The position numbers were made by a program, and so were the translations under genes. From a virus, in the IMG/VR virus record IMGVR_UViG_3300037258_000147, positions 40,681-104,680 of that record: a stretch of 64,000 bases of DNA; one strand, given 5' to 3'. Below, piece by piece: positions 9,716-39,227 of the stretch (position 1 is the stretch's first letter; every line of letters starts with the position of its first letter). Under the pieces are notes generated by a model. The model worked only from the letters and a program-made list of their open reading frames with translations, was not told the DNA's origin and did not search any database.

Positions 9716-9790
9716 TGGAGCGAAGCAGGGGAATCCGACCCCTTTCTCTGGTTTGGAAGACCAGGGCAACAAGCAATATACCAGCTTCGC
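9716..9790 (-). tRNA. tRNA-Gly(TCC)
   Basis: GCGAAGC/GCTTCGC acceptor, CTGGT-CTTCCAA-ACCAG arm, CCA. Confidence 0.85.
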
Positions 9791-9794
9791 AAAT

Positions 9795-9872
9795 TGGTCC
9801 CCGAAGGGTGAATTGAACACCCGATCTTTCGATTATCGGTCGAATGCTTTAAGCCAACTAAGCTATTCGGGG
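9795..9872 (-). tRNA. tRNA-Ile(GAT)
   Basis: TTCGA-CCGATAA-TCGAA arm, cloverleaf, CCA. Confidence 0.85.
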
Positions 9873-9873
9873 A

Positions 9874-9951
9874 TGGTACCAGAGACTGGATTCGAACCAG
9901 TGAAATTTTCTTTGTAGGAGAAACGGTTTAGACCACTCACACCACTCTGGC
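9874..9951 (-). tRNA. tRNA-Val(TAC)
   Basis: TTTCT-CCTACAA-AGAAA arm, TTCGAAT loop, CCA. Confidence 0.85.
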
Positions 9952-9956
9952 AAATA

Positions 9957-10032
9957 TGGTGCTCTCGGCTAGGCTCGAACTAGCATATCCATTTACGGTA
10001 CTTACCTTCGGAGGGTAAGCCGATACGGGAGC
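9957..10032 (-). tRNA. D-armless tRNA-like gene, anticodon CCG (Arg)
   Basis: GCTCCCG-TATCGG-CTTACC-CTCCGAA-GGTAAG-16 nt-GCTAG-TTCGAGC-CTAGC-CGAGAGC-ACCA. Confidence 0.7.
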
Positions 10033-10040
10033 AAAATTTT

Positions 10041-10130
10041 TACAGCGGGCCAATGCAATCCAGAACTCGTCAGTTCTTCGTGCCCCTAAGTCGTTAGACA
10101 TGGACCATTGAATTATGCGCCCCCGCTGTA
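10041..10130 (-). ncRNA. Orphan structured RNA
   Basis: 9-bp closing stem TACAGCGGG/CCCGCTGTA with internal hairpins, between tRNAs. Confidence 0.45.
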
Positions 10131-10133
10131 ACT

Positions 10134-10209
10134 TGGAACCGCTGGCCAGACTCGAACTGGCATCTCCTCTTACTCTGTCTCGTTTAGGAAACGAGTGAGA
10201 TACAGCGGC
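10134..10209 (-). tRNA. D-armless tRNA-like gene, anticodon CCT (Arg)
   Basis: GCCGCTG-TATCTCA-CTCGT-TTCCTAA-ACGAG-17 nt-GCCAG-TTCGAGT-CTGGC-CAGCGGT-TCCA. Confidence 0.7.
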
Positions 10210-10213
10210 AAAA

Positions 10214-10289
10214 TGGAGGCCCCGGAGAGATTCAAACTCCCGACCAATCGGGTAGAAACCGATGACTCTGTTCACTGAGTTACGAGGCC
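10214..10289 (-). tRNA. tRNA-Arg(TCT)
   Basis: ATCGG-TTTCTAC-CCGAT arm, cloverleaf, CCA. Confidence 0.85.
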
Positions 10290-10293
10290 GAAA

Positions 10294-10806
10294 TTAATAA
10301 GTTCTAAGAAGTCTAATGATTTGGGCAGAGTCGGCGAACTTTATCCATTCCCCTTCAGCTAGGTGAACATCAAATCTTTCTAGTAGCCCCTTTTCTGCGG
10401 AGCGTCTATCCAAACAAAACTCGTAGTTCTTGATGTAAAAAGCCTTATGCGGATCGTAGGTTTGATACGAAGCAAGCCTATCCTCAGTGTCAACCGTCAT
10501 TCCAATCTTCAAATAATCTGGCCATGTCGGGTTGGCAATGATGTAGACTTGGCCTTCTTTGCAATCTTTCGGCTTGCATCCTCTGGAGAATTTCAATTTT
10601 AGTAAATTTAAGCCGTGTATCTTCCTAGCCAAATTATAATCAAATTTTTTATTTCCTCCGATGCTCAAAGTTCCGTAAACTTTAACAGACTCAGATATCA
10701 TCTCTTCTGTTATATCAAAAGCAGAATATGGAGGTATTATACCGCGTTCGGACAGAATTTCTATCGTCTTTAGGCTTTTTTCACTAGGATTGCTCAAAGG
10801 ACTCAT
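10294..10806 (-). CDS. T5orf172/GIY-YIG-like endonuclease
   Basis: GQVYIIANP..YLKIGMT...RL..YQT...GEW motifs. Confidence 0.8.
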   Translation of the reverse strand: MSPLSNPSEKSLKTIEILSERGIIPPYSAFDITEEMISESVKVYGTLSIGGNKKFDYNLARKIHGLNLLKLKFSRGCKPKDCKEGQVYIIANPTWPDYLKIGMTVDTEDRLASYQTYDPHKAFYIKNYEFCLDRRSAEKGLLERFDVHLAEGEWIKFADSAQIIRLLRTY

Positions 10807-10835
10807 CCCTTTTCTAAAGTTAAACCAACTAGAAT

Positions 10836-10909
10836 TGGTACCTCGCTAGAGAATCGAACTCTATCCAACCGGGGTAAAAACCCGATATGCACCATCACAC
10901 TCACGAGGC
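10836..10909 (-). tRNA. tRNA-Lys(TTT)
   Basis: TCGGG-TTTTTAC-CCCGG arm, CCA. Confidence 0.75.
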
Positions 10910-10949
10910 GTCTTTTATCACTCTCGGATTTTGGTGTCATAACTGCTTC

Positions 10950-11174
10950 TCAGCCAACTAGGTAGTCCGTGGTTTTTAATCCCTGTTCGATACGGAACGC
11001 TTCATTCCGTTTCCACGTCTTGCTTATCGACCAACCTAATAGCCTAATCAAACAATATTGAAATTTTGAACCGGAGAAAGCTGTACCATCGTTTGTCCCA
11101 AACAAAATTACATGGGCCGGATCAGCCACAGACCCTCTCCAAAATATTCTTGCCTGCGTTGGTCCTGTGTACAT
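10950..11174 (-). CDS. Hypothetical protein within tRNA array
   Basis: 74 aa, TAGGAG RBS. Confidence 0.55.
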   Translation of the reverse strand: MYTGPTQARIFWRGSVADPAHVILFGTNDGTAFSGSKFQYCLIRLLGWSISKTWKRNEAFRIEQGLKTTDYLVG

Positions 11175-11192
11175 TTTTAACTACTCCTAAAA

Positions 11193-11267
11193 TGGTGGGT
11201 TGCCAGATAATCGAAATCTGTTCTTCCGGGTAAGAACCGGATGCTTCGCCAGCAAAGCTTGCAACCC
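11193..11267 (-). tRNA. tRNA-Lys(CTT)
   Basis: TCCGG-TTCTTAC-CCGGA arm, CCA. Confidence 0.85.
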
Positions 11268-11273
11268 GTTAAC

Positions 11274-11714
11274 TTACGGTATTGTGGTTACGGTAACAGT
11301 AACTGTTGTAGTAGTTCCACTTGGGGTAGAAGGAACGCCTGGAGTTCCGGGGACTACTACGAAAGCTGGAGCAGAAGAACCGCTTACTGCCGATGCTTGT
11401 TGAGTTTGAACTACGTAACAATAACTCGTTCCTGATGTTACGGATGAATCGACATATGCGGTTGCCTGCGGAGCAGAAACCCCAACTGAAGAATAAGACG
11501 ACGCAGTTAGTGGGCAAGTTGTTCCGGTAACTGGGGTTTTAGAAACCAGAAAAGTACAAGGTGCCGAAGTGCTGCATCCGGACCAACCAGGGGAAGCAGC
11601 AGGAACTGTCCAACTCAAATTAACCTGAAAAGAAGTCTGAGTTATCTGAGACTCGGCAGAACTTCCAAACACCAGCAGTCCAGCAAAAACCACAAACAGG
11701 AATATCTTCTTCAC
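11274..11714 (-). CDS. Secreted fibronectin-III-like protein
   Basis: GTG start KKIFLFVVFAGLLVFGSSAESQ signal peptide; VNLSWT...YVDSSV.SG.SYCYVVQ FN3 pattern. Confidence 0.75.
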   Translation of the reverse strand: MKKIFLFVVFAGLLVFGSSAESQITQTSFQVNLSWTVPAASPGWSGCSTSAPCTFLVSKTPVTGTTCPLTASSYSSVGVSAPQATAYVDSSVTSGTSYCYVVQTQQASAVSGSSAPAFVVVPGTPGVPSTPSGTTTTVTVTVTTIP

Positions 11715-11757
11715 GTGTTTTAGCCTTTCATGTCGTTCAAAATTCTTGAATATCGAA

Positions 11758-11849
11758 TGGTGGGCGACGAGGGAATCGAACCCGTCTGGCATCTCTCATC
11801 TAGAGACTACAGGGTTTATAAGGCCCCGCCCCGTCCTACGGCATCGCCC
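11758..11849 (-). tRNA. Atypical long-variable-arm tRNA, anticodon TAT (Ile/AUA)
   Basis: GGGCGAT acceptor, tiny CCGT-AGG-ACGG D hairpin, CTTATAA loop, ~23-nt variable arm, bulged T-stem, ACCA. Confidence 0.65.
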
Positions 11850-11870
11850 AAACTTGTCCATTTAATGGAC

Positions 11871-11941
11871 TGGTCCCGAAGCGTGGAATCAAACCACTCA
11901 CCTGGTCTTATGAGAACCAGTGCTGAATCATCAGCCTCGGG
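11871..11941 (-). tRNA. Short atypical tRNA, anticodon CAT (Met/Ile2)
   Basis: 71 nt, reduced D-arm, CTGGTT-CTCATAA-GACCAG, CCA. Confidence 0.65.
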
Positions 11942-11948
11942 TAAAACA

Positions 11949-12022
11949 TGGCAGGAGATGAAGGATTTGAACCCTCGAATCCCGGGTTGGAGCCGGGCGG
12001 TTTCCGTTAAGCCTAATCTCCC
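11949..12022 (-). tRNA. tRNA-Trp(CCA)
   Basis: CCCGG-CTCCAAC-CCGGG arm, GCCA end. Confidence 0.85.
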
Positions 12023-12441
12023 AAAAGATACTCGGATGCATTTTTTAGTAGAGAAGGATCGTCCTTAAAATGACCAATCCCTAGATTGCAACTCCTGCAC
12101 AACAATCCTCTTACTTTTCCCGTAAGATGATCGTGATCAACATGCAAAGGTTTGTCGTCTTTCTTACCACAAATCTTACAAATCCCATTCTGCTGCGAAA
12201 ATAAGAATAGGTATTCCGCTCCCGTCATCCCATATCTATTTGCTATTTTATAGCTAGGATGTGCTTTGTTCCATTTGTTTGCTTTAGAAATATATTTTTC
12301 TATGTTTCTGAGATAATGTTCTCTACGATAGTCGGCCTGGCAATCTCGGCATTGTTTATGCCTTATCCCTCTCGCTTCATCTCTAAAAGCAAAATCTTGT
12401 TCTTCGTCTTTAGAAGTATGACATTTAGAACAAATACTCAT
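12013..12441 (-). CDS. Endonuclease VII-family (His-Me) homing-type endonuclease
   Basis: YGMT..EY...QNGICKIC...LHVDHDH.TGKVRGLLCRSCNLGIG. Confidence 0.9.
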   Translation of the reverse strand: MSICSKCHTSKDEEQDFAFRDEARGIRHKQCRDCQADYRREHYLRNIEKYISKANKWNKAHPSYKIANRYGMTGAEYLFLFSQQNGICKICGKKDDKPLHVDHDHLTGKVRGLLCRSCNLGIGHFKDDPSLLKNASEYLLGD

Positions 12442-12456
12442 TTTATTATCAAGAAG

Positions 12457-12533
12457 TGGTAGCCCTAGTAGGATTCGAACCTACACTATGACTCGTTCGT
12501 AGCGAGTATGACTTTCCAGTTGCCGATAGGGCC
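12457..12533 (-). tRNA. tRNA-Arg(ACG)
   Basis: ACTCG-CTACGAA-CGAGT arm, CCA. Confidence 0.85.
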
Positions 12534-12541
12534 GTAAAACT

Positions 12542-12615
12542 TGGTCTCCGAGCGGGGATTCAAACCCCGGACGCCGCGCCCCAAACGCGGAATGTTTTCA
12601 CTACACTACTCAGAG
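12542..12615 (-). tRNA. tRNA-Pro(TGG)
   Basis: CCGCG-TTTGGGG-CGCGG arm, CCA. Confidence 0.85.
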
Positions 12616-12620
12616 ATAAA

Positions 12621-12699
12621 TGGTGCGGGTGGCAGGATTTCAACCTGCGATCTCCTGTTCCCGAAACAGGCGCGTTAAGGCAAACTTCGCTACACCCAC
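12621..12699 (-). tRNA. tRNA-Pro(CGG)
   Basis: CCTGT-TTCGGGA-ACAGG arm, CCA. Confidence 0.8.
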
Positions 12700-12710
12700 T
12701 TAAACTTTTC

Positions 12711-12805
12711 GGCCACGATAAAACTCTGTTCCCCCGCTTCCGACTAGGTTCGAACCTTCTGGGCGTTGGGTGTCTTGTTTTATCTTCGCTCTTTCGAACT
12801 AGGCC
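12711..12805 (-). ncRNA. Orphan rod-like structured RNA
   Basis: GGCC ends, GATAAAAC/GTTTTATC stem, apical AGG-TTCGAA-CCT. Confidence 0.45.
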
Positions 12806-12814
12806 AAAACTTTA

Positions 12815-12889
12815 TGGTGGACTCGGGCGGACTTGAACCGCCATCGCGCAAGGCTTCAACATGCCGCTCTACATTGGAGCTACGAGTCC
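12815..12889 (-). tRNA. tRNA-Phe(GAA)
   Basis: GCATG-TTGAAGC-CTTGC arm, canonical D/T arms, CCA. Confidence 0.85.
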
Positions 12890-12898
12890 GAATTTTGA

Positions 12899-13007
12899 TA
12901 TACGACTTGAGGTCGCTGCGACTCCCGTAGGGGCCACTCTTTCTTGTGGTGTCAGCCAAAGCAACCCGATAGACATCTGACAATGCCCGTCAAATTACTC
13001 CCGTATA
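12899..13007 (-). ncRNA. Orphan structured RNA
   Basis: TATACG/CGTATA closing stem; TGTCAG/CTGACA and CCAC/GTGG internal stems. Confidence 0.4.
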
Positions 13008-13070
13008 AACTTGGTGGACCTGTTGTCATCCCTCCGCGCTTTCGCTACGCGGCCCTATGAGGGTTTACGA

Positions 13071-13146
13071 TGGTGGACCCGGAGGGATTGCAACCCTCAA
13101 AACTACATTGCAGGTGTAGTATGATCGCATGTTTCATCACGGGCCC
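13071..13146 (-). tRNA. tRNA-Ala(TGC)
   Basis: G3:U70 pair, CTACA-CCTGCAA-TGTAG arm, CCA. Confidence 0.85.
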
Positions 13147-13396
13147 GTTTAAATCCAGTATACATTCCATCTTTTGCTAGAAAATGTTCAAGATCGTGGC
13201 AATTAGGACACAAAATTTCCAAATTGGACGGATCATTATTTGCGTGACTACGATCCTTATGGTGAACCTTCAAAATTCCAACTTGTTCATCATATCCGCA
13301 TCGATTGCATTTCGAGGGATAGTTTCTTCTTGCAATTTCCCGATAAGTCCCCTCTGGGGGGGGGGGGGGCGACCACCGAAGCAAGATATCCACCAT
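13103..13396 (-). pseudogene. Truncated HNH endonuclease with a C14 run at its 5' end
   Basis: CNRCG...VHHKD....NN...NLEILCPNCH; G14 at 13356-13369 on +; 3' end runs into tRNA-Ala. Confidence 0.6.
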
Positions 13397-13471
13397 CTGT
13401 AGAACTTCTACGCTACAGAACGTTCGTCACTCCAGAGTTTAGCATCCTCTGACACTTTCAAAAAGTCCCGC

Positions 13472-13626
13472 TGGTCCTCACCAATACCCGAGTCGAACGG
13501 GAAAGCGGGTTTGTCGCAGCCTACCATTAGAAGACGGTCCAAAGACCGGAGAGATTCGAACTCTCATTTACGACCCACATCAAGCCAGACATCCTATCCA
13601 CTAGACGACGCTCCGACTCGGGGACT
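13472..13626 (-). ncRNA. Degenerate/compound tRNA-like element (two D/T-like modules, ends ACCA)
   Basis: T-arms GAGAG-TTCGAAT-CTCTC and CCCG-TTCGACT-CGGG; D-like GTCTAGTGGATAGGAT and TTCTAATGGTAGG; no paired anticodon arm. Confidence 0.4.
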
Positions 13627-13699
13627 GTTTACTCGTGTTTGCATCCACGTCAGTCCTTGCTCAGAACGGGATGATTCGAACATCCGTCCTCTGGCACCT

Positions 13700-13775
13700 T
13701 GGAGGGAAGGGAGCGAGTCGAACGCTCTAAAGACATGATCCACAATCATGCGCCGCACCGTTTGGCTTCCAACCC
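13700..13775 (-). tRNA. tRNA-His(GTG)
   Basis: CATGA-TTGTGGA-TCATG arm; two U-U mismatches in acceptor. Confidence 0.75.
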
Positions 13776-13994
13776 AATTTTTGTTGTCCATTTTATGGAC
13801 TAAATTTGAGGACCAGACCGTTGGACACCTCGTTGCTTATTGCGGTCGGCTTGATCTCTTTTATGCGGAAGCCGAGTGGTAATCTTCCGCAGAGCCAAAC
13901 TCACGGTGTAAATTTGTCGGTGCTCTCCCTGGTGTCACACCACTGGTTAGGCAAAAGGTATTAGCTCTGCTACCGGGCAAGGTGTCGCCCATTA

Positions 13995-14065
13995 TGGAGC
14001 CGATGTACGGAGTTCAACCGTCAGGAACTCTTTACAGGAGAGTGCCGCTTGCGAAGCACATCGGC
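13995..14065 (-). tRNA. Short tRNA-Thr(TGT) with reduced D-arm
   Basis: GCCGATG/CATCGGC acceptor, GCTT-CGC-AAGC D hairpin, ACTCT-CCTGTAA-AGAGT. Confidence 0.65.
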
Positions 14066-14149
14066 TAACTTTTCGGTGGTATCTTCCCTCAAACCCTGAT
14101 ACTAGGTCCCTCATCTGAGTCCTTGCAGACCCCAGCACCGATGAAATTC

Positions 14150-14308
14150 GAGTGATGACGAATCGGACTTGATACCGATTCCTACTTTCGCGGTTGCGCC
14201 GCTACCATGCCACTAGGGAATCTCTTAATGTACACTCAGTTCTACCCCGGTAGGAGAAGCCCTAACACCTTCAAAGCTGCACGTCCATCCGTGCGGATCG
14301 TCATCACC
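14150..14308 (-). ncRNA. ~160-nt tRNA-like RNA with expanded interior
   Basis: 9-bp GTGATGACG/CGTCATCAC stem, GCACG-GATGGA-CGTGC D-like arm, AATCGG-TATCAAGT-CCGATT T-like arm; begins just after a promoter. Confidence 0.6.
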
Positions 14309-14314
14309 AAATAC

Positions 14315-14343
14315 ATTGTCTCACAACTCTAAAAACTTGTCAA
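14315..14343 (-). promoter_or_regulatory. Sigma70-type promoter inside tRNA array
   Basis: TTGACA-N17-GACAAT. Confidence 0.65.
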
Positions 14344-14355
14344 CCTAAATTTTGT

Positions 14356-14664
14356 CTAAATCGTATCGTTTTGTTCTAAAGACTCTAACAGCCACAAATC
14401 TACAGACAGTTGGGTCCGATCTTCTTGGTACCCGATCTCCTGTCCATTTTCTGGAAGCAGTTTTTCCGCCAAGATTAGAGTTGGTTCTATTAAAGAATCT
14501 AACCAAGGGTAGTCTGTTCTGGCCCGATCAAGTTCGGCCATATCCGCTAAAATCAGATTGCCGCTGTCCATTTGTGAAAATATATCAGGAAGAGGCGGCG
14601 CTGGTTTTTGCGCTTTGTGGTGATGGAAGCCGAGGATCACATATAACAAACCTACTGAAATCAT
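14356..14664 (-). CDS. Hypothetical protein with N-terminal hydrophobic segment
   Basis: Probable start MISVGLLYVILGF at 14664, since the upstream in-frame part overlaps tRNA-Thr. Confidence 0.55.
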   Translation of the reverse strand: MISVGLLYVILGFHHHKAQKPAPPLPDIFSQMDSGNLILADMAELDRARTDYPWLDSLIEPTLILAEKLLPENGQEIGYQEDRTQLSVDLWLLESLEQNDTI

Positions 14665-14682
14665 AGCTTCCTTTTCAAAGAG

Positions 14683-14754
14683 AGGTCGAAGTCGGAACTG
14701 CCCCGACACCGTATCCATACCAGGGATACATTCTTCTAGTTAAACTATTCGACC
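14683..14754 (-). tRNA. tRNA-Thr(GGT), no encoded CCA
   Basis: GGTCGAA/TTCGACC acceptor, TATCC-CTGGTAT-GGATA arm. Confidence 0.75.
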
Positions 14755-14758
14755 AAAT

Positions 14759-14834
14759 TGGAGCACCTGACCGGAGTCGAACCGGTGACTTCCTCTTTAC
14801 GGGAGAGGCGCTGTGCCGTCTGAGCCACAGGTGC
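14759..14834 (-). tRNA. tRNA-Thr(CGT)
   Basis: CCTCT-CCCGTAA-AGAGG arm, CCA. Confidence 0.85.
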
Positions 14835-14836
14835 AG

Positions 14837-14891
14837 TAAGGTATCATAAAAGTGACCTTAAGTAGGTTAAGGTGTCATATATGACACCTTA
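14837..14891. repeat. Tandem pair of 24-bp palindromes
   Basis: TAAGGTATCATAAAAGTGACCTTA (14837) and perfect TAAGGTGTCATATATGACACCTTA (14868). Confidence 0.7.
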
Positions 14892-15047
14892 GTCCATTAT
14901 ATGGACTGAAATTTATGCCAACTCGGTGGACGAAAGTTCGAGGGGGGTGTCTAATCGTCTACCTCTGGTCGCGACTAGTTCTAGGCCGCTGGCTGGAGCT
15001 TCTTCGCCTTATCACAGACCCTTATCCGCAAAAAGGTTGAATAGAAA

Positions 15048-15122
15048 TGGAGCGGGCGACGGGTCTTGCCCCCGCAACCTTTGCATTGGCAACGCAATGT
15101 TCTGCAATTGAACTACGCCCGC
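15048..15122 (-). tRNA. tRNA-Gly(GCC)
   Basis: TTGCG-TTGCCAA-TGCAA arm, CCA. Confidence 0.85.
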
Positions 15123-15126
15123 GAAA

Positions 15127-15202
15127 TGGCAGGGAGTACAGGAATCGAACCTGTCTGGGTGGGTCCAAAGGCCACCGCCTGAAACCAATCGGCCAACTCC
15201 CT
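15127..15202 (-). tRNA. tRNA-Gln(TTG)
   Basis: CTTTGGA loop, GCCA end. Confidence 0.8.
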
Positions 15203-15210
15203 GTAAAACT

Positions 15211-15284
15211 TGGCACCCCGTCGTGGATTCGAACCACGATACTCTGCTTCAGAAACAGAAGTCCTGCCGTTGAACGAACGGGGT
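15211..15284 (-). tRNA. tRNA-Gln(CTG)
   Basis: TCTGT-TTCTGAA-GCAGA arm, GCCA. Confidence 0.85.
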
Positions 15285-15289
15285 AAATT

Positions 15290-15364
15290 TGGCTCCTCCC
15301 CTCCGACTCGAACGGAGACCTTTTTGGTTAACTGCCAAAAGCAATGCCATTATGCTAGAGAGGA
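15290..15364 (-). tRNA. tRNA-Asn(GTT)
   Basis: TCCTCTC acceptor, TTTGG-CAGTTAA-CCAAA arm (A33). Confidence 0.8.
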
Positions 15365-15370
15365 ATAAAA

Positions 15371-15889
15371 TCAAAAAGTGCGAAGAGTTCTGATGATTTC
15401 CAGGGAATTAGAATGCTTAATCCATTCTCCCTCTTCGAGGTGAAAACCAAAATCATCCAACAACTTCTTTTCTGCTTCTCTTCTATCAAGAACGAATTCG
15501 TAATTCTTGATGTAAAAAGCCTTGAAAGGATCATACGTCTGATACGAATCCAGTCTCGCTTCCGAATCTACAGACATGCCTATCTTGATGTGATCCGGCC
15601 AGGCTGGGTTACCGATCAAGTAGATTTGTCCTTCTTTACAATCCTTCGGTTTGGCTCCTCGATGAAACTTCAATCTTAAGAGTTCTAGGCCCGCTAATTT
15701 TCTGGCGTACCTATATTGGAATTTTCCATTACTTTTCGGGGCAAGACTACCATAGATTCGGATGTACTCGGAAAGCATTTCTTCTGTAATATCGAAGGTT
15801 GTGTACGGAGGGACAATATCTGCATCCGAGAGAAGTCTTACAGTTTCTGCAATTCTTTCTGTTCTTCCTATTTCTTTAGGGTTGCTCAA
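15371..15889 (-). CDS. T5orf172/GIY-YIG-like endonuclease, paralog of 10294..10806
   Basis: Shared PPY..FDITEEM.SE, KPKDCKEGQ.Y, YQTYDP.KAFYIKNYEF, EGEWIK. Confidence 0.8.
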   Translation of the reverse strand: MSNPKEIGRTERIAETVRLLSDADIVPPYTTFDITEEMLSEYIRIYGSLAPKSNGKFQYRYARKLAGLELLRLKFHRGAKPKDCKEGQIYLIGNPAWPDHIKIGMSVDSEARLDSYQTYDPFKAFYIKNYEFVLDRREAEKKLLDDFGFHLEEGEWIKHSNSLEIIRTLRTF

Positions 15890-15912
15890 CGGCTCTCCCC
15901 TTTTGAATTTTA

Positions 15913-15989
15913 TGGTAGGGATGGTGAGGCTCTAACTCACTAGGACGTGGGTGAAGGCCACGGCACTCGAACACTTTGTATTCATCCCC
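15913..15989 (-). tRNA. tRNA-Glu(TTC)
   Basis: CGTGG-CCTTCAC-CCACG arm; atypical D and T loops. Confidence 0.7.
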
Positions 15990-15997
15990 ATAAATTT

Positions 15998-16126
15998 GTG
16001 CGACTTACTCGGTGATCGAGTCGAACGATCCCCCGCTACTTTTGCATTCACGGGTGACAACCAGGGTTCCGTCCTCAGCATCAGATTTGCTGTCTTCCGC
16101 CTTGTAGTCCTAATGGACAGCCGCAC
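15998..16126 (-). ncRNA. ~130-nt RNA with tRNA-type T-arm (tRNA mimic/Y-RNA-like candidate)
   Basis: GTGCGGC/GTCGCAC closing stem, GATCG-TTCGACT-CGATC T-arm, several hairpins, no CCA. Confidence 0.5.
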
Positions 16127-16142
16127 AAACTATTTTAAAACT

Positions 16143-16823
16143 TTAAAACGCTACATCACTCCAGGTCAGTTGAATATTTTTGTACAAAGTATTCAATCCT
16201 CCAGGTACTAAAGTTTCTGTTTGCAACTGAATAGCCGCGACTGAAGACCAGTTTGAGGTTTGACTAGGTAGTTCTTGCAAATTACTCGGGACTGAAAATT
16301 CTGTGGCTCCCCAAGTAGTAGACAGCATACTGAACTTGTTGTTCGGTACGTCTATGAAATATCTGAAACTTATTGGCGTCCAAGTGTCAGGAGCCAGAGT
16401 TGGTTTAAACCCAGTGTCTATCCAGCCCGGAGGGGATGTGTCGATCTGCCAGCTTCCGGTAGACAAATTCAACTGTGAACTAAAGTTGAAGACATTAGGA
16501 ATCTGTGTACTTGCGTTGGGGGCTGATTGCGAAACTACTTTTACGTCAATCTCCAGCCGTCCCAAAACAGGAAGATCAAAAGACGAAACGTAAACTTGTA
16601 AATCCAATCCCAGATATGGTAAAAAAATTCCGGGGATACTAGGGACCGGGCGCTTATTGGTTACTAACGCCCCACCAAAAGCTGAGGTACTTACGTTGGT
16701 TACCTTCAGAGCCCCAGACGGAAGTAACGTCGGGATAAAAGCTGAAGAAGGAATAGGATTTACGCTTGCTCCGGTTTGTACTACCCACGTGCCTTTTTCC
16801 AGTCCATCATCAATTACCCGCAT
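16143..16823 (-). CDS. Hypothetical beta-sandwich (lectin-like) protein
   Basis: 226 aa, TAGGAG RBS, beta-rich composition. Confidence 0.65.
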   Translation of the reverse strand: MRVIDDGLEKGTWVVQTGASVNPIPSSAFIPTLLPSGALKVTNVSTSAFGGALVTNKRPVPSIPGIFLPYLGLDLQVYVSSFDLPVLGRLEIDVKVVSQSAPNASTQIPNVFNFSSQLNLSTGSWQIDTSPPGWIDTGFKPTLAPDTWTPISFRYFIDVPNNKFSMLSTTWGATEFSVPSNLQELPSQTSNWSSVAAIQLQTETLVPGGLNTLYKNIQLTWSDVAF

Positions 16824-16834
16824 TAGTCTCCTAT

Positions 16835-16909
16835 TGGTAGCCTACCAGAGAATCAAACTCTGTTCTCGATCTTGAGAAAATCGCATCCTAATCAGTAGAA
16901 GAGTAGGCC
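16835..16909 (-). tRNA. tRNA-Glu(CTC)
   Basis: CGATT-TTCTCAA-GATCG arm, CCA. Confidence 0.8.
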
Positions 16910-16955
16910 GTTTTATATTCCACGCCAACGAATTACTGTCATGGTTACTCCTAAA

Positions 16956-17030
16956 TGGCGGGACCGACGAGAATCAAACTCGCATCTTTCTCCTCGACAG
17001 GGAGACATCTTATCATTAGACTACGGTCCC
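16956..17030 (-). tRNA. tRNA-Asp(GTC)
   Basis: TCTCC-CTGTCGA-GGAGA arm, GCCA. Confidence 0.85.
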
Positions 17031-17033
17031 AAT

Positions 17034-17111
17034 TGGTTGCGGCTCTCGGGAGTTGAACCCGGTATCCCAAGGGTATGAGTCTTGGATGGTCATCCGTTCC
17101 ACTCAGCCGCA
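17034..17111 (-). tRNA. tRNA-Met(CAT), initiator-like acceptor
   Basis: TGCGGCT/AGCCGCA-ACCA, CTCATAC loop. Confidence 0.75.
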
Positions 17112-17726
17112 TCAAAATTTAAAAATTCCTGCATCATATTCCCAATGATGATTTGGACACAAGGGTAGGAGGTTATCAATATCATTGATCTCTCTTATCA
17201 AAGTGTCAGTAGAAAAAGAGGAAACTGATCTAATATGAGCAACGTCAACGTGATTCGAATACCCGCAAACACAGCATTTCTTCTCTTTACCCCCGTCTAG
17301 GTATGTCTGTCTGGCATGTCGTTGAATCGAACTTCTAGCAGATTGATACCCGCCTCTTCGACCAAACAACTCGCCTTTCGTCCACCCCGAAAGTTTCCCA
17401 GTTCTAGTTTTCTTTAAGCCTCGAACTTTCTTGCACTCTTCAGAACAAGTAAACTTTCTTTTAGGAACAGGAGCCCCACAGACCCGACATCTACGAGAAA
17501 TATTCTTGTTTCGTTTCCTTTTCTTAGGAAATTTTGCATTGTTAAAACTCGCAGAACAAGTTCTGTTACAGAACTTCTTTTGTCGAATTTCAGATACTTT
17601 CCTTTTTGGATCAATAGTAATCATTGACAAACAATGCTTACAAAAATTAGGGTTTGCTAAGTACCTTTCCTCCGCTCTCTGCCTTTGCAGTAAAGCGGAG
17701 ACTATCGAACCACTTGATTTTGCCAT
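17112..17726 (-). CDS. HNH endonuclease with Zn-finger repeats
   Basis: FCNRTC, CRVCG...TCSEEC, CCVCGY...VAHI......N...NLLPLCPNHHWEYD. Confidence 0.85.
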   Translation of the reverse strand: MAKSSGSIVSALLQRQRAEERYLANPNFCKHCLSMITIDPKRKVSEIRQKKFCNRTCSASFNNAKFPKKRKRNKNISRRCRVCGAPVPKRKFTCSEECKKVRGLKKTRTGKLSGWTKGELFGRRGGYQSARSSIQRHARQTYLDGGKEKKCCVCGYSNHVDVAHIRSVSSFSTDTLIREINDIDNLLPLCPNHHWEYDAGIFKF

Positions 17727-17805
17727 ACCTAAACGTAAGTTTCCTTTCTCGTATGTTTTATCATACCACAGAAGTCCAGATAATGGAAATCTTTTCTGTG
17801 AAAAA

Positions 17806-17892
17806 TGGTGGGTTGTGTAGGGCTTTAACCTACCATGCTCGAAGGAGCGCCACTTTTACAGAGTGGGAGCCGTACGCCCGGCAATACAACCC
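17806..17892 (-). tRNA. tRNA-Tyr(GTA)
   Basis: CCACT-CTGTAAA-AGTGG arm, long variable arm, CCA. Confidence 0.8.
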
Positions 17893-17897
17893 AAAAA

Positions 17898-17982
17898 TGG
17901 AGGAGAGCAGCCGAATCGAACGGCCATCCCGAAGGAGCCCCGGTTTTCAAGACCGGATGTATCACCATCAACAGTGCTCTCC
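17898..17982 (-). tRNA. tRNA-Ser(TGA), probable 8/4 fold
   Basis: GGAGAGCA/TGCTCTCC 8-bp acceptor, GCCG/CGGC 4-bp T-stem. Confidence 0.8.
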
Positions 17983-18065
17983 GAATATAACATGACAAGT
18001 TATAAAAAGTCAAGGTCCTATATATGGGTCGTTAATCCACTATACGACCTATATATGAACCAAAA

Positions 18066-18153
18066 TGGCGGAAGATGAAGTAATCGAAACCTTGTCCATT
18101 TAATGGACAGCATCGGGTTCGAGCCGATTTGACCGCCTTGGTCGCCATCTTCC
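18066..18153 (-). tRNA. tRNA-Ser(CGA), probable 8/4 fold; variable arm is the GTCC-N7-GGAC palindrome
   Basis: GGAAGATG/CATCTTCC, ATCGG-CTCGAAC-CCGAT, variable arm TGTCCA-TTAAA-TGGACA. Confidence 0.8.
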
Positions 18154-18189
18154 GTTAACTTGGCCATGTTAATTATCATGGCCGTGATA

Positions 18190-18277
18190 TGGCGGATGGG
18201 ACAGGACTCGAACCTGCACATGCTTTCACATGAGCCGACTTTCCAAGCCGGTGCGATACCGTTCCGCTCACCCATCC
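18190..18277 (-). tRNA. tRNA-Ser(GGA)
   Basis: CCGGC-TTGGAAA-GTCGG arm, CATGT-GAAA-GCATG variable arm. Confidence 0.85.
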
Positions 18278-18299
18278 AATTTTTACTGTACAGCAAATA

Positions 18300-18392
18300 T
18301 GGCGGAGAGTGAGGGCTTCGATCCCCCGTGTCCAAATAATGGACAGCCTCTGTTTAGCAAACAGGCACAATACCGGGCTCTGTCAACTCTCC
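18300..18392 (-). tRNA. tRNA-Ser(GCT); variable arm is the GTCC-N7-GGAC palindrome
   Basis: GGAGAGT/ACTCTCC, TTGCTAA loop, variable arm TGTCCA-TTATT-TGGACA. Confidence 0.85.
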
Positions 18393-18398
18393 AAAAAT

Positions 18399-18578
18399 TT
18401 AAACTTTCATTCTCCGGTAGTCTGTCCAAGCTTCTTTTCTTGTACTTCCTATTCCCAGAACTTGTTCCCAACGATCACGGCCTCCTATGGAATAGGGTTT
18501 GGGAGGCAAAAAACCACCAAAGCATACTACGAATCCACTGTTGTCTTCTAAACTACGGCAATAAACTTTGTCAGACAT
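18399..18578 (-). CDS. Small hypothetical protein
   Basis: MSDKVYCRS... with GGAG RBS. Confidence 0.5.
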   Translation of the reverse strand: MSDKVYCRSLEDNSGFVVCFGGFLPPKPYSIGGRDRWEQVLGIGSTRKEAWTDYRRMKV

Positions 18579-18591
18579 TGTTTCTCCAGCT

Positions 18592-18692
18592 TGGTGCGGC
18601 TTCGAGCCGTCAGCGCCAACGGTTGACTCTCCGTAAAACTTTCTTAGTCTAGACTTTGAGTCTAGCAATCTGGACCTTTCGCCGCCGGTCGC
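18592..18692 (-). pseudogene. Degenerate tRNA-Leu(CAA)-like sequence
   Basis: CTAGA-CTCAAAG-TCTAG arm and ACCA end, but poor acceptor and T arm. Confidence 0.4.
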
Positions 18693-18810
18693 CCAGTGGG
18701 GGTTTAGCGCCCAGATAACGCCCCTATCTCGTAACCGTGATTGGCCGCTCCACAATCCTTCGGACTCGGTTATTTGATAATCTATGTGTCAAACACAGTG
18801 CTAAGAAACT

Positions 18811-18886
18811 TGGTCCCCGCGCCCAGATTCGAACTGGGAAAATTACTGGGTTTGAGCCAGTCGCTCTGCCGTTTCGCTACGCGGGG
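18811..18886 (-). tRNA. tRNA-Leu(CAA) with short variable loop
   Basis: ACTGG-CTCAAAC-CCAGT arm, 6-nt variable loop. Confidence 0.8.
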
Positions 18887-18892
18887 GTGATA

Positions 18893-18978
18893 TGGTGGGC
18901 ACGGCGAGACTCGAACTCGCAATCGGTTTTACCCTTCCGGTTTCTAAGACCGGCGCTTTGCCATTTTGCTACGCGCCC
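18893..18978 (-). tRNA. tRNA-Leu(TAG)
   Basis: CCGGT-CTTAGAA-ACCGG arm, long variable arm. Confidence 0.85.
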
Positions 18979-18986
18979 GTAAAATA

Positions 18987-19062
18987 TGGAGGTCCAGATC
19001 GGACTCGAACCGACGATTAAGAGTTTTGCAGACTCTCGCATTTGCCGCTTTGCTACTGGACC
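18987..19062 (-). tRNA. tRNA-Cys(GCA)
   Basis: AGAGT-CTGCAAA-ACTCT arm, U73. Confidence 0.85.
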
Positions 19063-19063
19063 A

Positions 19064-19138
19064 TGGTGCGATAGGAGGGACTCGAACCCTCAGACGCTGG
19101 GTTTTAAATCCAGATGATTTGCCATTCTCTACTATCGC
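19064..19138 (-). tRNA. tRNA-Leu(TAA) with short variable loop
   Basis: TTTAAAA loop, 5-nt variable loop, CCA. Confidence 0.75.
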
Positions 19139-28605: not shown

Positions 28606-30789
28606 ATGAAACTCGTTTCAAACGCAACTACAATCGCAGAGTTCCGCGCAGATGTTCTCCAATACATCGAACTTCGCGCCGAGCAAAACCGAGCGGCTGA
28701 AAGGTCGGTCACCGGAAAGAACATCAAGAAGATGTATATTCATGCCGCGTCTGAGATTCAGTCTATCGCCGATGATCTGCGCTATATGGACTCTGGGAAT
28801 AAGGTAGCGTAATGCGTATTTTCCGGTCTCCAATATCCCGGATCAGTTGGAGGAGCGGGAATTTTCTTACATCCCAGGCGCGATCCTTGTCTGAGGTAAT
28901 CAAGGGTCCGGCTAGACACCTTACGGCAAAGCCGGATTTTGTCTGCGCTGCCTGTACAAAGAATATGCACTACGCATGTGTTAGTAAAAGGTGCGAGTGC
29001 GGAAAGAAGCATTTATGACCCAAAATTTTTCCTTGACAGACCAACTAGGGTTGGCTATAATCATTGTAGCAATTTTGGAGTTGTGGTTTTTGTGGTAACT
29101 GGAATCTGTCCGAAAAATGGACAAAAGAGGGGTTATGGAAATCAAAACCAGCACACTAGGGCCGTCTTGGGACGACTTTGAAACCGCAAGAATGAAAAGG
29201 GAAGACGAAAACGTAGCGCGGCGGGTAGCAGACTACCAGCGGCGCGGCGGATGGTTCGACCAAACCGAAGAGGAATTGTGATAGTCCCTCTGCAATACTG
29301 CTGTGACGCGCCCGGATGTACGCAGGTTCGGACGGATACGAACCGATGGTGGGTCGTCTACACGGGATACCCCAGCCATATCGGAGTGTATACGTGGGAT
29401 CACGCCGAGGCGGATCACAAACTGGACAGCACGGACTCCCGCCACTTCTGCGGCCAAACTCACGCTCTGCAATTCGTATCATCTGAGATGGGGGTAAAAT
29501 GAAACTCTCCTTCGAGGATTTTGTCTACTACTCGGAATGGCTTGAGATAGTTCGGATGGGGAATTTTGTCGGCGAGTATGAATTACGAAAAATTATTCTC
29601 AAGAAAATCCGAGAATTCAGACGAGGCCGCCCACTTTTTGCCGGACCCTACGGGGATAAATCCGCGTGGGCTGGAATGGTCCGCAATTGGTACAAGGCAT
29701 ATGTGGAGGAAGCATGAAACACACGGAGATATTTTATTCTCTCTGCGAGGCCCACACTATTCTGTGTCTAGCCTGCGATAGGGCCGGAAACGCGGCGGAT
29801 GTTTGGTGGATTCCCTTTTTCGGGCGGAACCGCTGGCGAGCCTACCGCACTGCACTCCATGCTATGGAGTACCTGCAAAAACAGGTAGGCGAAGAATACT
29901 CGCTGGCTGTTGAGGAGCTTTGCCAATGACCAATCTTTCAACCAGAAAGTCAAAGTGTATTGTCCAGTTTTCGGACACGATTCGGGAGCGGGGCCGGTTA
30001 CGTGAAGTCATTATGGAGTTCTCACCCTACGGTATTAAAGTCCGACTCAAGGGCATGAGAAGTTCATACGATATTTCCCCGGCCTCTATCTACAACTCTG
30101 CTGTGCTTAAGTTTGTGGCAGCACAAAAATCTGAGAAGAAGGCCAAGAAAGCGGGGAGGAAATGAGGCAAGTGCGAAATAAATTATGGCTGCATAGTGGC
30201 TACCGGATCGGAGAAAACGGATTCATATTTAACCGTCCAGCCTGTCGGTTGTGTAAATTGTTCGACGCCCGAGTTTGCGAAAATAAGTATTGCGTTTTTT
30301 GCTTTGTCGGACTCTTGGAGATTCGGGGGATATGGGGATCGAGACGACGGCGGACTACGGGGGCTATCGTGCGCAGGACTCGAAAGATTTACAGGAACTC
30401 AGTTAGTCCGAAAAATGGACAACCTGAATGACCAATCAGCTAGGCGATCTAACAGCCCGACAAGAAGCCTTACGGCATCTACGTTCCAGATGGATGAAAT
30501 TATTCTTGACTAAGCCCTGGACTTCGGATAACGTAAGGGAGAGAGCTTTGATTTGTGAGAAGATTGTTAAGTGGGGTGCAAAGTGAAAACCTACGAAGTA
30601 AAAGTACCGATTGCCGGACACGCTTATGTTTATGTCGAGGCTGACTCGGAAGAAGAGGCTATCACAACGGCTGTGAGTGCGGCTGAGTTGCAGGATTTAG
30701 GCGGCTGGGAAGCCCTGCGGAAATTCAACATGGGCAACGTCTGTTACTGCCCGCAACCTTGGGAAGCAGAAGCTGCGGAAATGGAATAA
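28606..30789 (+). other. Cluster of small hypothetical genes (28606-28812, 28812-29018, 29135-29281, ~29278-29502, 29499-29717, 29714-29929, 29926-30165, 30162-30431, ~30571-30789)
   Basis: Tightly packed ATGA/TAATG-coupled ORFs. Confidence 0.65.
29033..29061 (+). promoter_or_regulatory. Sigma70-type promoter
   Basis: TTGACA-N17-TATAAT. Confidence 0.8.
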
Positions 30790-30791
30790 CC

Positions 30792-39169: not shown

Positions 39170-39182
39170 TCCAGATCGCGGA

Positions 39183-39209
39183 TTGACAACTCGAAACATG
39201 TGGTATAAT
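39183..39209 (+). promoter_or_regulatory. Sigma70-type promoter
   Basis: TTGACA-N15-TATAAT with TGTGG extension. Confidence 0.65.
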
Positions 39210-39227
39210 GCGAACAAAGGAGAAAAA

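What the first reader, a model, noticed from the sequence alone, without database searches (positions are those of the whole stretch)
9957..10209. Two D-armless tRNA-like genes for the rare Arg codons CGG and AGG
Seen: both have a 7-bp acceptor, a full anticodon arm, a canonical T-arm and CCA, but only a 6-7-nt linker starting TATC where the D-arm should be. Both have a 16-17-nt variable region ending GATAT/GAGAT that can pair with the linker (TATC/GATA; ATCTC/GAGAT). The same design in two divergent sequences argues against decay. Established: D-armless tRNAs are typical of mitochondria, and bacterial ArgRS uses D-loop A20, which is absent here. Inference: an alternative tRNA fold, a nuclease decoy, or a tRNA charged by another route.
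Basis: partly seen in the sequence, partly recalled or inferred. Interest (0 to 1): 0.75.

Follow-up and report, generated by a model that had tools for sequence, protein, structure and literature searches.

The report
Rewired phage arginine tRNAs
Two 76-base genes in a phage's tRNA cluster are very probably working arginine tRNAs (codons AGG and CGG) whose D-arm pieces lie on either side of the anticodon arm instead of forming the textbook hairpin, so the cloverleaf may not be the only layout a bacterial-type tRNA can have.

Summary
On the minus strand, 10209-10134 (anticodon CCT) and 10032-9957 (CCG) have normal acceptor, anticodon and T arms plus CCA, but no D hairpin. ARAGORN and Rfam miss both.

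They are not decayed or D-armless in the mitochondrial sense. I found 32 relatives in about 20 uncultured-phage contigs, all inside tRNA arrays. 31 carry Arg anticodons and one TAT. All four helices covary.

Linker nt 11-13 pair with nt 35-37, just after the anticodon arm, in 18/18 seed sequences with four pair types. A 9-nt stretch follows that matches the D-loops of ordinary tRNA-Arg, including GG and A20. So A20 is present and the D arm is rewired, not lost.

These genes never duplicate a canonical Arg anticodon in their array. In relatives with the same gene order, the CCT and CCG slots hold canonical or rewired genes interchangeably. The phage has no other CGG or AGG decoder and no ArgRS, and these codons make up 34% of its Arg codons.

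Most likely these are functional Arg tRNAs with a permuted core. Folding and charging are inferred, not shown. I found no paper describing this. This scan has already reported the same family on other DNA.

The parts
10134..10209 (-). Gene A: rewired tRNA-Arg(CCU), 76 nt, reads AGG
   Evidence: Sequence parsed. R1 score 87.6 bits. Not called by ARAGORN or Rfam.
9957..10032 (-). Gene B: rewired tRNA-Arg(CCG), 76 nt, reads CGG; C5-A68 mismatch in the acceptor stem
   Evidence: R1 score 85.7 bits. Relatives have T5-A68 (L493) or C5-G68 (L051) at this pair.
10197..10199 (-). A, nt 11-13 (CTC): 5' strand of the replacement D stem
   Evidence: Pairs with 10173-10175 (GAG). Family covariation.
10173..10175 (-). 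A, nt 35-37 (GAG): 3' strand of the replacement D stem, lying after the anticodon arm
10163..10171 (-). A, nt 39-47: D-loop-like 9-mer (A14, R15, G18 G19, A20, A21 equivalents), followed by T48 at 10162
   Evidence: Identical to the D-loop of the canonical tRNA-Arg(TCT) in L493. GG, the following A and the flanking A/T are invariant in the 18-sequence seed, but the search patterns behind most of the seed required them; a D-loop-free pattern also recovers them, with +/-1 nt spacing.
10020..10022 (-). B, nt 11-13 (CGG): 5' strand of the replacement D stem
   Evidence: Pairs with 9996-9998 (CCG)..
9996..9998 (-). B, nt 35-37 (CCG): 3' strand of the replacement D stem
9986..9994 (-). B, nt 39-47: D-loop-like 9-mer, followed by T48 at 9985
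10033..10133 (-). Spacer between A and B. It holds a 93-nt structured element (10040-10132) closed by a 10-bp stem and followed by an A5T4 run. Not part of the tRNA design.
   Evidence: Fold (z = -2.6 to -3.2). No Rfam hit. No homologue in the loci held at that point. In G002, L493 and L123 the two rewired genes are only 3-5 nt apart.
10214..10289 (-). Canonical tRNA-Arg(UCU), immediately upstream in the same transcription direction; start of the conserved Arg block
   Evidence: ARAGORN and Rfam, 54.7 bits.
12457..12533 (-). Canonical tRNA-Arg(ACG). With UCU, the only other Arg tRNA in the whole 104.7-kb genome.

Best explanation
A and B are functional phage tRNA-Arg genes (CCU reading AGG, CCG reading CGG) of a non-cloverleaf family with a permuted core. 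They are transcribed with the rest of the minus-strand tRNA array and end in an encoded CCA. The acceptor/T-arm half is canonical: 7/5 bp with a TTCGAG-type T loop. Nothing folds back between nt 9 and the anticodon stem. Instead, nt 11-13 (sometimes 14) pair with nt 35-37 (34), which lie just 3' of the anticodon arm. This gives a 3-4 bp helix that stacks on the anticodon stem where the D stem normally sits. The chain then runs through a 9-nt D-loop look-alike (A14, R15, G18 G19, A20 and A21 equivalents) and one pyrimidine (a 48 equivalent) straight into the T stem. Inferred: GG docks on the T loop to form the normal elbow. T8 and the first A of the 9-mer form the 8-14 pair. The layer count from anticodon stem to elbow stays at ten (5 + 1 + 3 + 1). 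The three new chain junctions (9 to 22, 45 to 10, 21 to 48 in standard numbering) join residues that are neighbours in the known L-shape. The host ArgRS would then read C35, U/G36 and the A after GG (A20) as usual. Shown here: conservation, covariation of all four helices, D-loop identity, anticodon complementarity and slot exchange with canonical genes. Inferred: the 3D fold, processing, charging and decoding.
For: (1) Family: 32 distinct members in about 20 phage or metagenome contigs, all inside tRNA arrays. 31 have Arg anticodons (CCT, CCG, TCT, ACG) and one has TAT.
(2) Covariation in the gapless 18-sequence alignment A1: acceptor, anticodon and T stems are 98-100% paired with many double changes. 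The new helix 11-13:35-37 is paired 18/18, with four pair types at both 12:36 and 13:35. RNAalifold predicts it unprompted. Of all column pairs at least 4 columns apart, 12:36 and 13:35 rank 5th and 6th by mutual information, and the top 13 pairs are all helix pairs. In 32 sequences the helix is 96.9% paired.
(3) The 9-mer has the same form as the D-loops of canonical tRNA-Arg in these arrays, and in one case is identical.
(4) Tertiary hints: the 15 and 48 equivalents are A/T in 27, G/C in 3 and G/G in 2 sequences. The only member with GA instead of GG (L552:1046-1122) has a TTT T-loop. This is the same 19-56 A-U rule seen in canonical Arg tRNAs of this phage lineage.
(5) No rewired Arg gene shares an anticodon with a canonical Arg tRNA in the same locus.
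(6) In the conserved block Lys-Lys-Arg(TCT)-[CCT]-[CCG]-Val-Ile-Gly, the two slots are canonical/canonical in G001, canonical/rewired in L168, and rewired/rewired in the window, G002, L493 and L123.
(7) The 97%-complete genome has no other CCG or CCT tRNA and no ArgRS. CGG plus AGG make up 34% of its Arg codons.
Against: There is no expression, processing, structure-probing or aminoacylation data. No 3D model could be built with the tools at hand. Thermodynamic folding alone does not favour the proposed fold: for A the MFE is -28.4 against -23.3 kcal/mol, and for B -21.6 against -20.1. Single tRNAs are often misfolded in silico, which weakens this objection. B carries a C-A mismatch in its acceptor stem. 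Part of the apparent invariance of the 9-mer was forced by my search patterns. The D-loop-free pattern recovered 14 true members, two of them new with slightly different spacing. The 15:48 and 19:56 covariations rest on few, partly related sequences. A2 was aligned to the model and leans towards it. The closest relative (G001) manages with canonical genes, so the rewiring gives no obvious necessity.
Confidence: 0.75

Rival explanations
1. tRNA-shaped decoys or sponges. The RNAs mimic tRNA-Arg to soak up a host anticodon nuclease or another tRNA-directed defence and are not used in translation.
For: Phage tRNA arrays are thought to counter tRNA-cleaving defences (general knowledge). This array shows other odd features, such as C33 in the Val tRNA at 9874-9951, and the phage carries an RNA ligase gene. 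Standard tRNA models do not recognise the RNAs.
Against: A decoy should copy the anticodon loops of the targeted tRNAs whether or not a canonical copy is present. Instead, the rewired genes always supply an Arg anticodon missing from the array and swap slot-for-slot with canonical genes in relatives. The 7/5 acceptor/T domain, CCA and discriminator also covary as in working tRNAs. The phage would otherwise lack a CGG decoder of its own for its most used Arg codon.
Confidence: 0.1
2. One reading: a mitochondria-like D-armless tRNA in which the TATC linker pairs with the GATAT/GAGAT end of the variable region, without a D-loop/T-loop elbow.
For: The complementarity exists in A (5 bp) and B (4 bp), and RNAfold's MFE structure for A uses it.
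Against: Across 18 homologues this helix is paired in 49% (register 9-13:44-48) or 71% (register 8-11:44-47) of cells with no compensatory change. Its 'paired' columns are simply invariant. The competing helix 11-13:35-37 covaries. The GG and TTC elbow nucleotides are conserved, and one member covaries at 19:56.
Confidence: 0.05
3. The RNAs are charged by another route or with another amino acid: they escape ArgRS and are aminoacylated by a different host or phage enzyme, giving recoding.
For: The non-standard core could alter synthetase recognition. Discriminators vary in the family (T in A, A in B, G elsewhere).
Against: C35, U/G36 and the A20 equivalent, the known bacterial ArgRS determinants (established knowledge), are all kept. 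No ArgRS catalytic or DALR domain is found in the genome. Canonical tRNA-Arg genes with the same anticodons occupy the same slots in relatives.
Confidence: 0.05
4. Decaying tRNA pseudogenes that lost the D arm by deletion.
For: No standard tool calls them. B has one acceptor mismatch.
Against: They are the same exact 76-nt length as 19 other family members (and similar designs of 77-83 nt) in phages with 49-68% GC in the gene. All stems show compensatory changes, CCA is retained and an extra helix covaries. A deletion cannot place a D-loop sequence after the anticodon arm.
Confidence: 0.02

Closest known systems
Canonical class I bacterial and phage tRNA-Arg (Rfam RF00005 cloverleaf), e.g. this window's tRNA-Arg(UCU) at 10214-10289 and the canonical CCU/CCG genes of relative G001 (L551:15999-16074 and 16165-16239)
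   Same: Same length (76 nt), 7/5 acceptor/T domain, CCA, anticodon arm, Arg anticodons and D-loop sequence form with GG and A20. Same slot in the array, and presumably the same job.
   Different: There is no D hairpin. The strand that pairs with nt 11-13 and the D-loop itself lie 3' of the anticodon arm, so the secondary structure is a three-way junction rather than a four-way cloverleaf. RF00005 and ARAGORN fail.
Mitochondrial D-armless tRNAs (mammalian mt-tRNA-Ser(AGY), nematode mt-tRNA-Ser; review PMC7609411)
   Same: No D hairpin. A short connector follows the acceptor stem. Extension of the anticodon helix by connector/variable pairing has been proposed for the mitochondrial case (my recollection of older models).
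   Different: Mitochondrial forms are shortened, lack the GG/T-loop elbow and are flexible. Here the length is normal and all elbow and core nucleotides are retained.
Allo-tRNAs and 8/4 or 9/3 tRNAs of bacteria and phage tRNA clusters (Mukai et al. 2017, PMC5389517)
   Same: Non-canonical tRNAs found in metagenomic and phage tRNA gene clusters and missed by standard annotation.
   Different: Those keep a D hairpin and change the acceptor/T split, with a long V-arm. A and B are 7/5 with a rewired D region. The paper does not describe this layout.
Permuted tRNA genes of the red alga Cyanidioschyzon merolae (Soma et al. 2007, from my own knowledge)
   Same: The order of tRNA segments in the gene differs from the textbook order.
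   Different: There the whole gene is circularly permuted and processing restores a normal cloverleaf. Here two internal segments are exchanged and the mature RNA itself would be non-cloverleaf.
tRNA mimics with non-standard connectivity (tmRNA tRNA-like domain, plant-virus TYMV tRNA-like structure; from my own knowledge)
   Same: An L-shaped elbow built from D-loop-like and T-loop elements despite a different strand topology.
   Different: Those are domains of larger RNAs and do not decode sense codons by ordinary anticodon pairing. A and B are free-standing 76-nt genes with normal anticodon arms.

Membership tests
Canonical cloverleaf tRNA (Rfam RF00005) | 7-bp acceptor stem, discriminator, 3' CCA (encoded or added) | tested here: met
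   A pairs 7/7 (G1-T72). B pairs 6/7 (C5-A68). Both end in CCA. The stem covaries in the family.
Canonical cloverleaf tRNA (Rfam RF00005) | 5-bp T stem with 7-nt T loop (T54 T55 C56 R57 A58) | tested here: met
   The stem is 100% paired in the family.
Canonical cloverleaf tRNA (Rfam RF00005) | 5-bp anticodon stem, 7-nt loop with U33 and purine 37 | tested here: met
Canonical cloverleaf tRNA (Rfam RF00005) | D hairpin (stem 10-13/22-25 closing its own loop) between nt 9 and nt 26 | tested here: not met
   Only 7 nt lie between the acceptor and anticodon stems.
Canonical cloverleaf tRNA (Rfam RF00005) | Score at or above the RF00005 gathering threshold (29 bits) | tested here: not met
   No RF00005 match over A or B even at E<=10. 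ARAGORN makes no call.
Rewired (permuted-core) phage tRNA-Arg/Ile family, as defined by model R1 here and by earlier reports of this scan | Covarying 3-4 bp helix between nt 11-14 and the nucleotides 3-6 positions after the anticodon stem | tested here: met
   A has CTC/GAG and B has CGG/CCG.
Rewired (permuted-core) phage tRNA-Arg/Ile family, as defined by model R1 here and by earlier reports of this scan | D-loop-like A-R-N-N-G-G-A-N-A directly after that helix, then one nucleotide, then the T stem | tested here: met
Rewired (permuted-core) phage tRNA-Arg/Ile family, as defined by model R1 here and by earlier reports of this scan | Sits in a phage tRNA array and supplies an anticodon not provided by a canonical gene there | tested here: met
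Rewired (permuted-core) phage tRNA-Arg/Ile family, as defined by model R1 here and by earlier reports of this scan | L-shaped fold with a D-loop/T-loop elbow | not testable with these tools
   Only indirect support: invariant GG and TTC, one 19:56 covariation, and 15:48 A-T versus G-C.
Bacterial tRNA-Arg identity set (ArgRS determinants A20, C35, U/G36; established knowledge) | C35 and U36 or G36 | tested here: met
   Anticodons are CCT (A) and CCG (B).
Bacterial tRNA-Arg identity set (ArgRS determinants A20, C35, U/G36; established knowledge) | A20 in the D-loop, directly after G18 G19 | tested here: met
   The GGA motif is present in both and invariant in the seed. Canonical Arg tRNAs of the same arrays have the same motif. 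Whether it sits in the same 3D place is inferred.
Bacterial tRNA-Arg identity set (ArgRS determinants A20, C35, U/G36; established knowledge) | Aminoacylation with arginine | not testable with these tools
   This needs an in vitro charging assay.
Mitochondrial-type D-armless tRNA | Shortened RNA whose D region is a bare connector, with loss of the conserved D-loop/T-loop elbow nucleotides | tested here: not met
   The length is 76 nt, and GG, A14, A21 equivalents and the TTC T loop are all kept.
Allo-tRNA / 8/4 or 9/3 tRNAs (Mukai 2017) | 8- or 9-bp acceptor with a 4- or 3-bp T stem and a long variable arm | tested here: not met
   The configuration is 7/5, and the 17-nt 'variable' region forms no hairpin of its own.

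The most novel reading that the evidence does not exclude
The permuted core is an adaptive design, not a neutral curiosity. It keeps every surface needed by RNase P, ArgRS, EF-Tu and the ribosome, but changes the backbone path through the D-stem and variable-pocket region. Phage Arg tRNAs would then escape host tRNA-Arg-directed nucleases or other tRNA-sensing defences that cleave or deplete the cell's own tRNA-Arg. Phages would thus have found a second, translation-competent topology for tRNA.
Probability: 0.2. Interest if true: 0.92.

Novelty: new variant of a known kind. Interest (0 to 1): 0.8.

Why it matters
The cloverleaf with a D hairpin is treated as universal for cytosolic-type tRNAs, and the only accepted exceptions are shrunken mitochondrial forms. 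A full-length tRNA that keeps the core nucleotides but threads them in a different order, and that replaces ordinary tRNA-Arg genes slot-for-slot in phage arrays, has three consequences. First, bacterial processing, charging and decoding machinery would tolerate a different chain topology. Second, phage tRNA complements are under-counted by ARAGORN and Rfam, and probably by other standard finders. In this genome the CGG and AGG decoders were invisible. Third, it gives a natural test case for which parts of tRNA architecture are read as shape rather than connectivity, which is useful for tRNA engineering and for understanding phage-host conflicts over tRNA.

Tried and rejected
- ARAGORN in standard, intron, pseudogene and mitochondrial modes, and Rfam at gathering and at E<=10, give no usable call for A or B.
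- blastn of the region and of relatives against 50,697 cultured-phage records finds no member. The one partial hit, Variovorax phage V45v66, scores 34.5 bits with R1, has a broken anticodon arm and sits in no tRNA array, so I rejected it.
- The genome-contig scan and the metagenome scan were truncated at 120 rows. None of the 120 cellular-genome hits is a true member. This is not proof of absence from cells.
- An R1 hit in relative G001 at 45.8 bits is an ordinary tRNA-Ser and was rejected.
- A search for homologues of the 93-nt spacer element among the loci held at that point found nothing. The promoter and terminator scan was uninformative.
- Literature searches for a D-armless or rewired phage tRNA, and readings of PMC5389517, PMC7609411 and PMC10690425, found no description of this layout. 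Subscription-only papers were not searchable.
- The search for a phage ArgRS was negative.

Full report
**Context**

The window is bases 40681-104680 of a 104,680-base uncultured-virus record estimated 97% complete. A tRNA array runs on the minus strand from 9716 to 19138. ARAGORN genes there and none elsewhere in the genome. Homing-endonuclease-type ORFs are interspersed: T5orf172, endonuclease VII and HNH. The phage is far from any cultured phage; its DNA polymerase is about 33% identical to the best matches.

**The observation**

Read on the minus strand, 10209-10134 (A) and 10032-9957 (B) are each exactly 76 nt. Both have:
- a 7-nt acceptor pairing (A 7/7 with G1-T72; B 6/7 with a C5-A68 mismatch);
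- a 7-nt linker beginning TATC;
- a 5-bp anticodon stem with a 7-nt loop (anticodons CCT and CCG);
- 17 nt before a 5-bp T stem with a standard T loop;
- a discriminator and CCA.

Neither ARAGORN (four modes) nor Rfam (down to E = 10) recognises them. So the description is accurate. The 101 nt between them is a separate matter, covered below.

**Relatives**

A short pattern spanning the junction of the "variable" region and the T arm, and then broader patterns, found the same design in IMG/VR and metagenome contigs.
- The first set was 18 distinct 76-nt sequences that align without gaps (A1).
- A covariance model built from them (R1) scores members at 82-98 bits and ordinary tRNAs at 38 bits or less.
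- R1 also found more divergent members of 77-83 nt, including an 82-83-nt subclass with ACG and TCT anticodons and one member with anticodon TAT.
- A pattern that puts no constraint on the D-loop-like segment recovered 12 known members plus 2 new ones.

In all there are 32 distinct members in about 20 contigs (A2). Gene G+C ranges from 49 to 68%, and the contigs include two complete phage genomes of 66 and 89 kb. Every member lies inside a phage tRNA array. None of 120 pattern hits in cellular genomes was a member, but that scan was truncated.

**Which fold**

On A1 the acceptor, anticodon and T stems are 98-100% paired with abundant double changes, so these are RNAs under selection for tRNA-like structure.

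It shows no compensatory change; its apparent pairs are just invariant columns.

A different helix is supported instead: nt 11-13 with nt 35-37, the 4th to 6th nucleotides after the anticodon stem.
- It is paired in 18 of 18 sequences.
- C11-G37 is constant, and 12:36 and 13:35 each show four pair types.
- RNAalifold predicts it without prompting.
- Of all column pairs in A1 at least 4 columns apart, 12:36 and 13:35 rank 5th and 6th by mutual information. The top 13 are all helix pairs.
- In the 32-sequence alignment the helix is 96.9% paired and all three pairs show double changes, with the caveat that A2 was fitted to the model.
- A fourth pair, 14:34, forms in 8 of 18 sequences.
- In the window the pairs are CTC/GAG in A and CGG/CCG in B.

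**The "variable region" is a displaced D-loop**

After that helix come T, then a 9-mer of the form A-R-N-N-G-G-A-N-A, then T, then the T stem. Canonical tRNA-Arg genes in the same arrays have D-loops of exactly this form. The D-loop of the canonical tRNA-Arg(TCT) in L493 is identical to A's 9-mer.

Two weaker observations point to the normal tertiary contacts:
- The 15 and 48 equivalents are A/T in 27 members, G/C in the three TCT members of the long subclass, and G/G in two.
- The single member with GA in place of GG (L552:1046-1122) has TTT in place of TTC in its T loop. Canonical Arg tRNAs of this phage lineage, including the window's own tRNA-Arg(TCT), show the same 19:56 A-U combination.

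**Inferred architecture**

From the known tRNA crystal structure (established knowledge), the new helix would stack on the anticodon stem in the place of the D stem. Counting layers gives ten, as in a normal tRNA:
- 5 anticodon-stem pairs;
- the 14/34 layer;
- 3 pairs of the new helix;
- a Y10/T38 layer.

The three altered chain connections (9 to 22, 45 to 10, 21 to 48 in standard numbering) join residues that already touch in the L-shape through the 9-[12-23], 45-[10-25] and 21-[8-14]/15-48 interactions. This is a rationale, not a result. I could not build a 3D model. Single-sequence thermodynamic folding slightly prefers other structures.

**Function**

Three lines of comparative evidence argue that these are working Arg decoders.

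First, no rewired Arg gene duplicates the anticodon of a canonical Arg tRNA in the same locus. They always fill a gap. In this genome the canonical genes are UCU and ACG only, and A and B supply CCU and CCG.

Second, gene order is conserved among relatives found through the DNA polymerase and through the tRNAs themselves. The block is Lys-Lys-Arg(TCT)-[CCT]-[CCG]-Val(TAC)-Ile(GAT)-Gly(TCC), and G001 has only one of the two Lys genes. The two bracketed slots are filled as follows:

| Genome or locus | CCT slot | CCG slot |
|---|---|---|
| G001 (62% polymerase identity, complete genome) | canonical | canonical |
| L168 | canonical | rewired |
| Window | rewired | rewired |
| G002 | rewired | rewired |
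| L493 | rewired | rewired |
| L123 | rewired | rewired |

In L123 the two rewired genes sit in the order CCG, CCT. The window's A shares its whole acceptor stem with L493's CCT gene, and its anticodon arm and new helix with G002's, so these are orthologues evolving by compensatory change.

Third, CGG is the most used Arg codon in the window's long ORFs (21.4%), and AGG accounts for 12.7%. The codons are therefore not rare for this phage.

No ArgRS domain is encoded, so charging would depend on the host enzyme.

**Rivals**

- A decoy role is not excluded, but it does not predict anticodon complementarity or slot exchange.
- A mitochondria-like floppy D-armless tRNA is contradicted by the normal length and the retained elbow nucleotides.
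- Pseudogenes are excluded by covariation.
- Charging by another route has nothing in its favour beyond the unusual core.

**Novelty**

Searches of the paper library and readings of the 2017 allo-tRNA paper, the 2020 review of non-canonical tRNAs and the 2023 viral structured-RNA survey found no description of this layout. The library lacks most subscription journals.

This scan has already reported the same family ("permuted core" or "rewired D-arm" Arg and Ile tRNAs) in at least eight other genomes. Those are unchecked AI notes. I reached the same reading independently before looking them up. This window adds:
- the canonical/rewired slot exchange among close relatives;
- the 19:56 covariation;
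- a genome in which two rewired genes complete the Arg set.

**The spacer**

10133-10033 folds into a multibranched structure closed by a 10-bp stem and followed by an A5T4 run. It has no Rfam match and no homologue in the loci I held at that point. In G002, L493 and L123 the two rewired genes are 3-5 nt apart, so the element is an insertion in this lineage and not part of the tRNA design. G001 has analogous long-hairpin spacers with T runs between its Arg genes. Its function is unexplained.

Noticed in passing
window 10033-10133 (-): A 93-nt structured element (10040-10132) sits between the two rewired genes. It has a 10-bp closing stem whose strands resemble gene A's acceptor strands in swapped order, and an A5T4 run follows it. 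It has no Rfam hit and no homologue in the loci held at that point. Relative G001 has similar long-hairpin-plus-T-run spacers between its Arg genes (L551:15781-15998, 16075-16164, 16240-16396).
   Followed up: partly
window 9874-9951 (-): ARAGORN's 'tRNA-Cys(aca)' is almost certainly tRNA-Val(TAC) with C33 in place of U33. It occupies the slot held by Val(TAC) in G001, G002, L493, L168 and L123.
   Followed up: partly
window 10214-10289 (-); also L551:15703-15780, L551:15999-16074, L552:334-408: Canonical Arg tRNAs of this phage lineage have GA instead of GG in the D-loop together with TTT instead of TTC in the T loop. This is a G19-C56 to A19-U56 swap at the elbow.
   Followed up: partly
window 9957-10032 (-), nt 5 and 68 (10028 and 9965): Gene B has a C-A mismatch in the acceptor stem. 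Its 5' strand matches L051's gene (C-G) and its 3' strand matches L493's (T-A), as if caught midway through a compensatory change.
   Followed up: partly
L142:3576-3657, L142:3902-3983, L159:2392-2473, L159:2807-2889, L170:7176-7257, L170:7487-7569: An 82-83-nt subclass of the rewired design carries ACG or TCT anticodons and about six extra nucleotides after the GGA motif. ARAGORN mis-calls two of the TCT ones as 90-91-nt tRNA-Arg.
   Followed up: partly
L163:1211-1290 (-): The same rewired layout occurs with anticodon TAT (Ile AUA), so the design is not strictly limited to arginine.
   Followed up: no
L168:1186-1261 and L168:1269-1344: A canonical tRNA-Arg(CCT) and the adjacent rewired tRNA-Arg(CCG) share about 20 nt across the end of the variable region and the T arm. 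This hints at recombination or common descent between canonical and rewired genes.
   Followed up: no
window 39144-40190 (+): An ORF with an RNA ligase domain (PF09414) lies next to the DNA polymerase gene. It might be a tRNA-repair function in a phage with a large tRNA array.
   Followed up: no
window 10294-10806, 12013-12441, 17112-17726 (-): T5orf172/MUG113, endonuclease VII and HNH ORFs are interspersed among the tRNA genes and are likely homing endonucleases.
   Followed up: no
L030:6503-6806 and L073:9015-9318: A tmRNA gene (tag ADYALPQAA) is embedded in a phage tRNA array that also carries a rewired tRNA-Arg(CCG).
   Followed up: no
window 30759-31865 (+): A tyrosine-integrase-family ORF in this 105-kb phage suggests a temperate lifestyle.
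   Followed up: no
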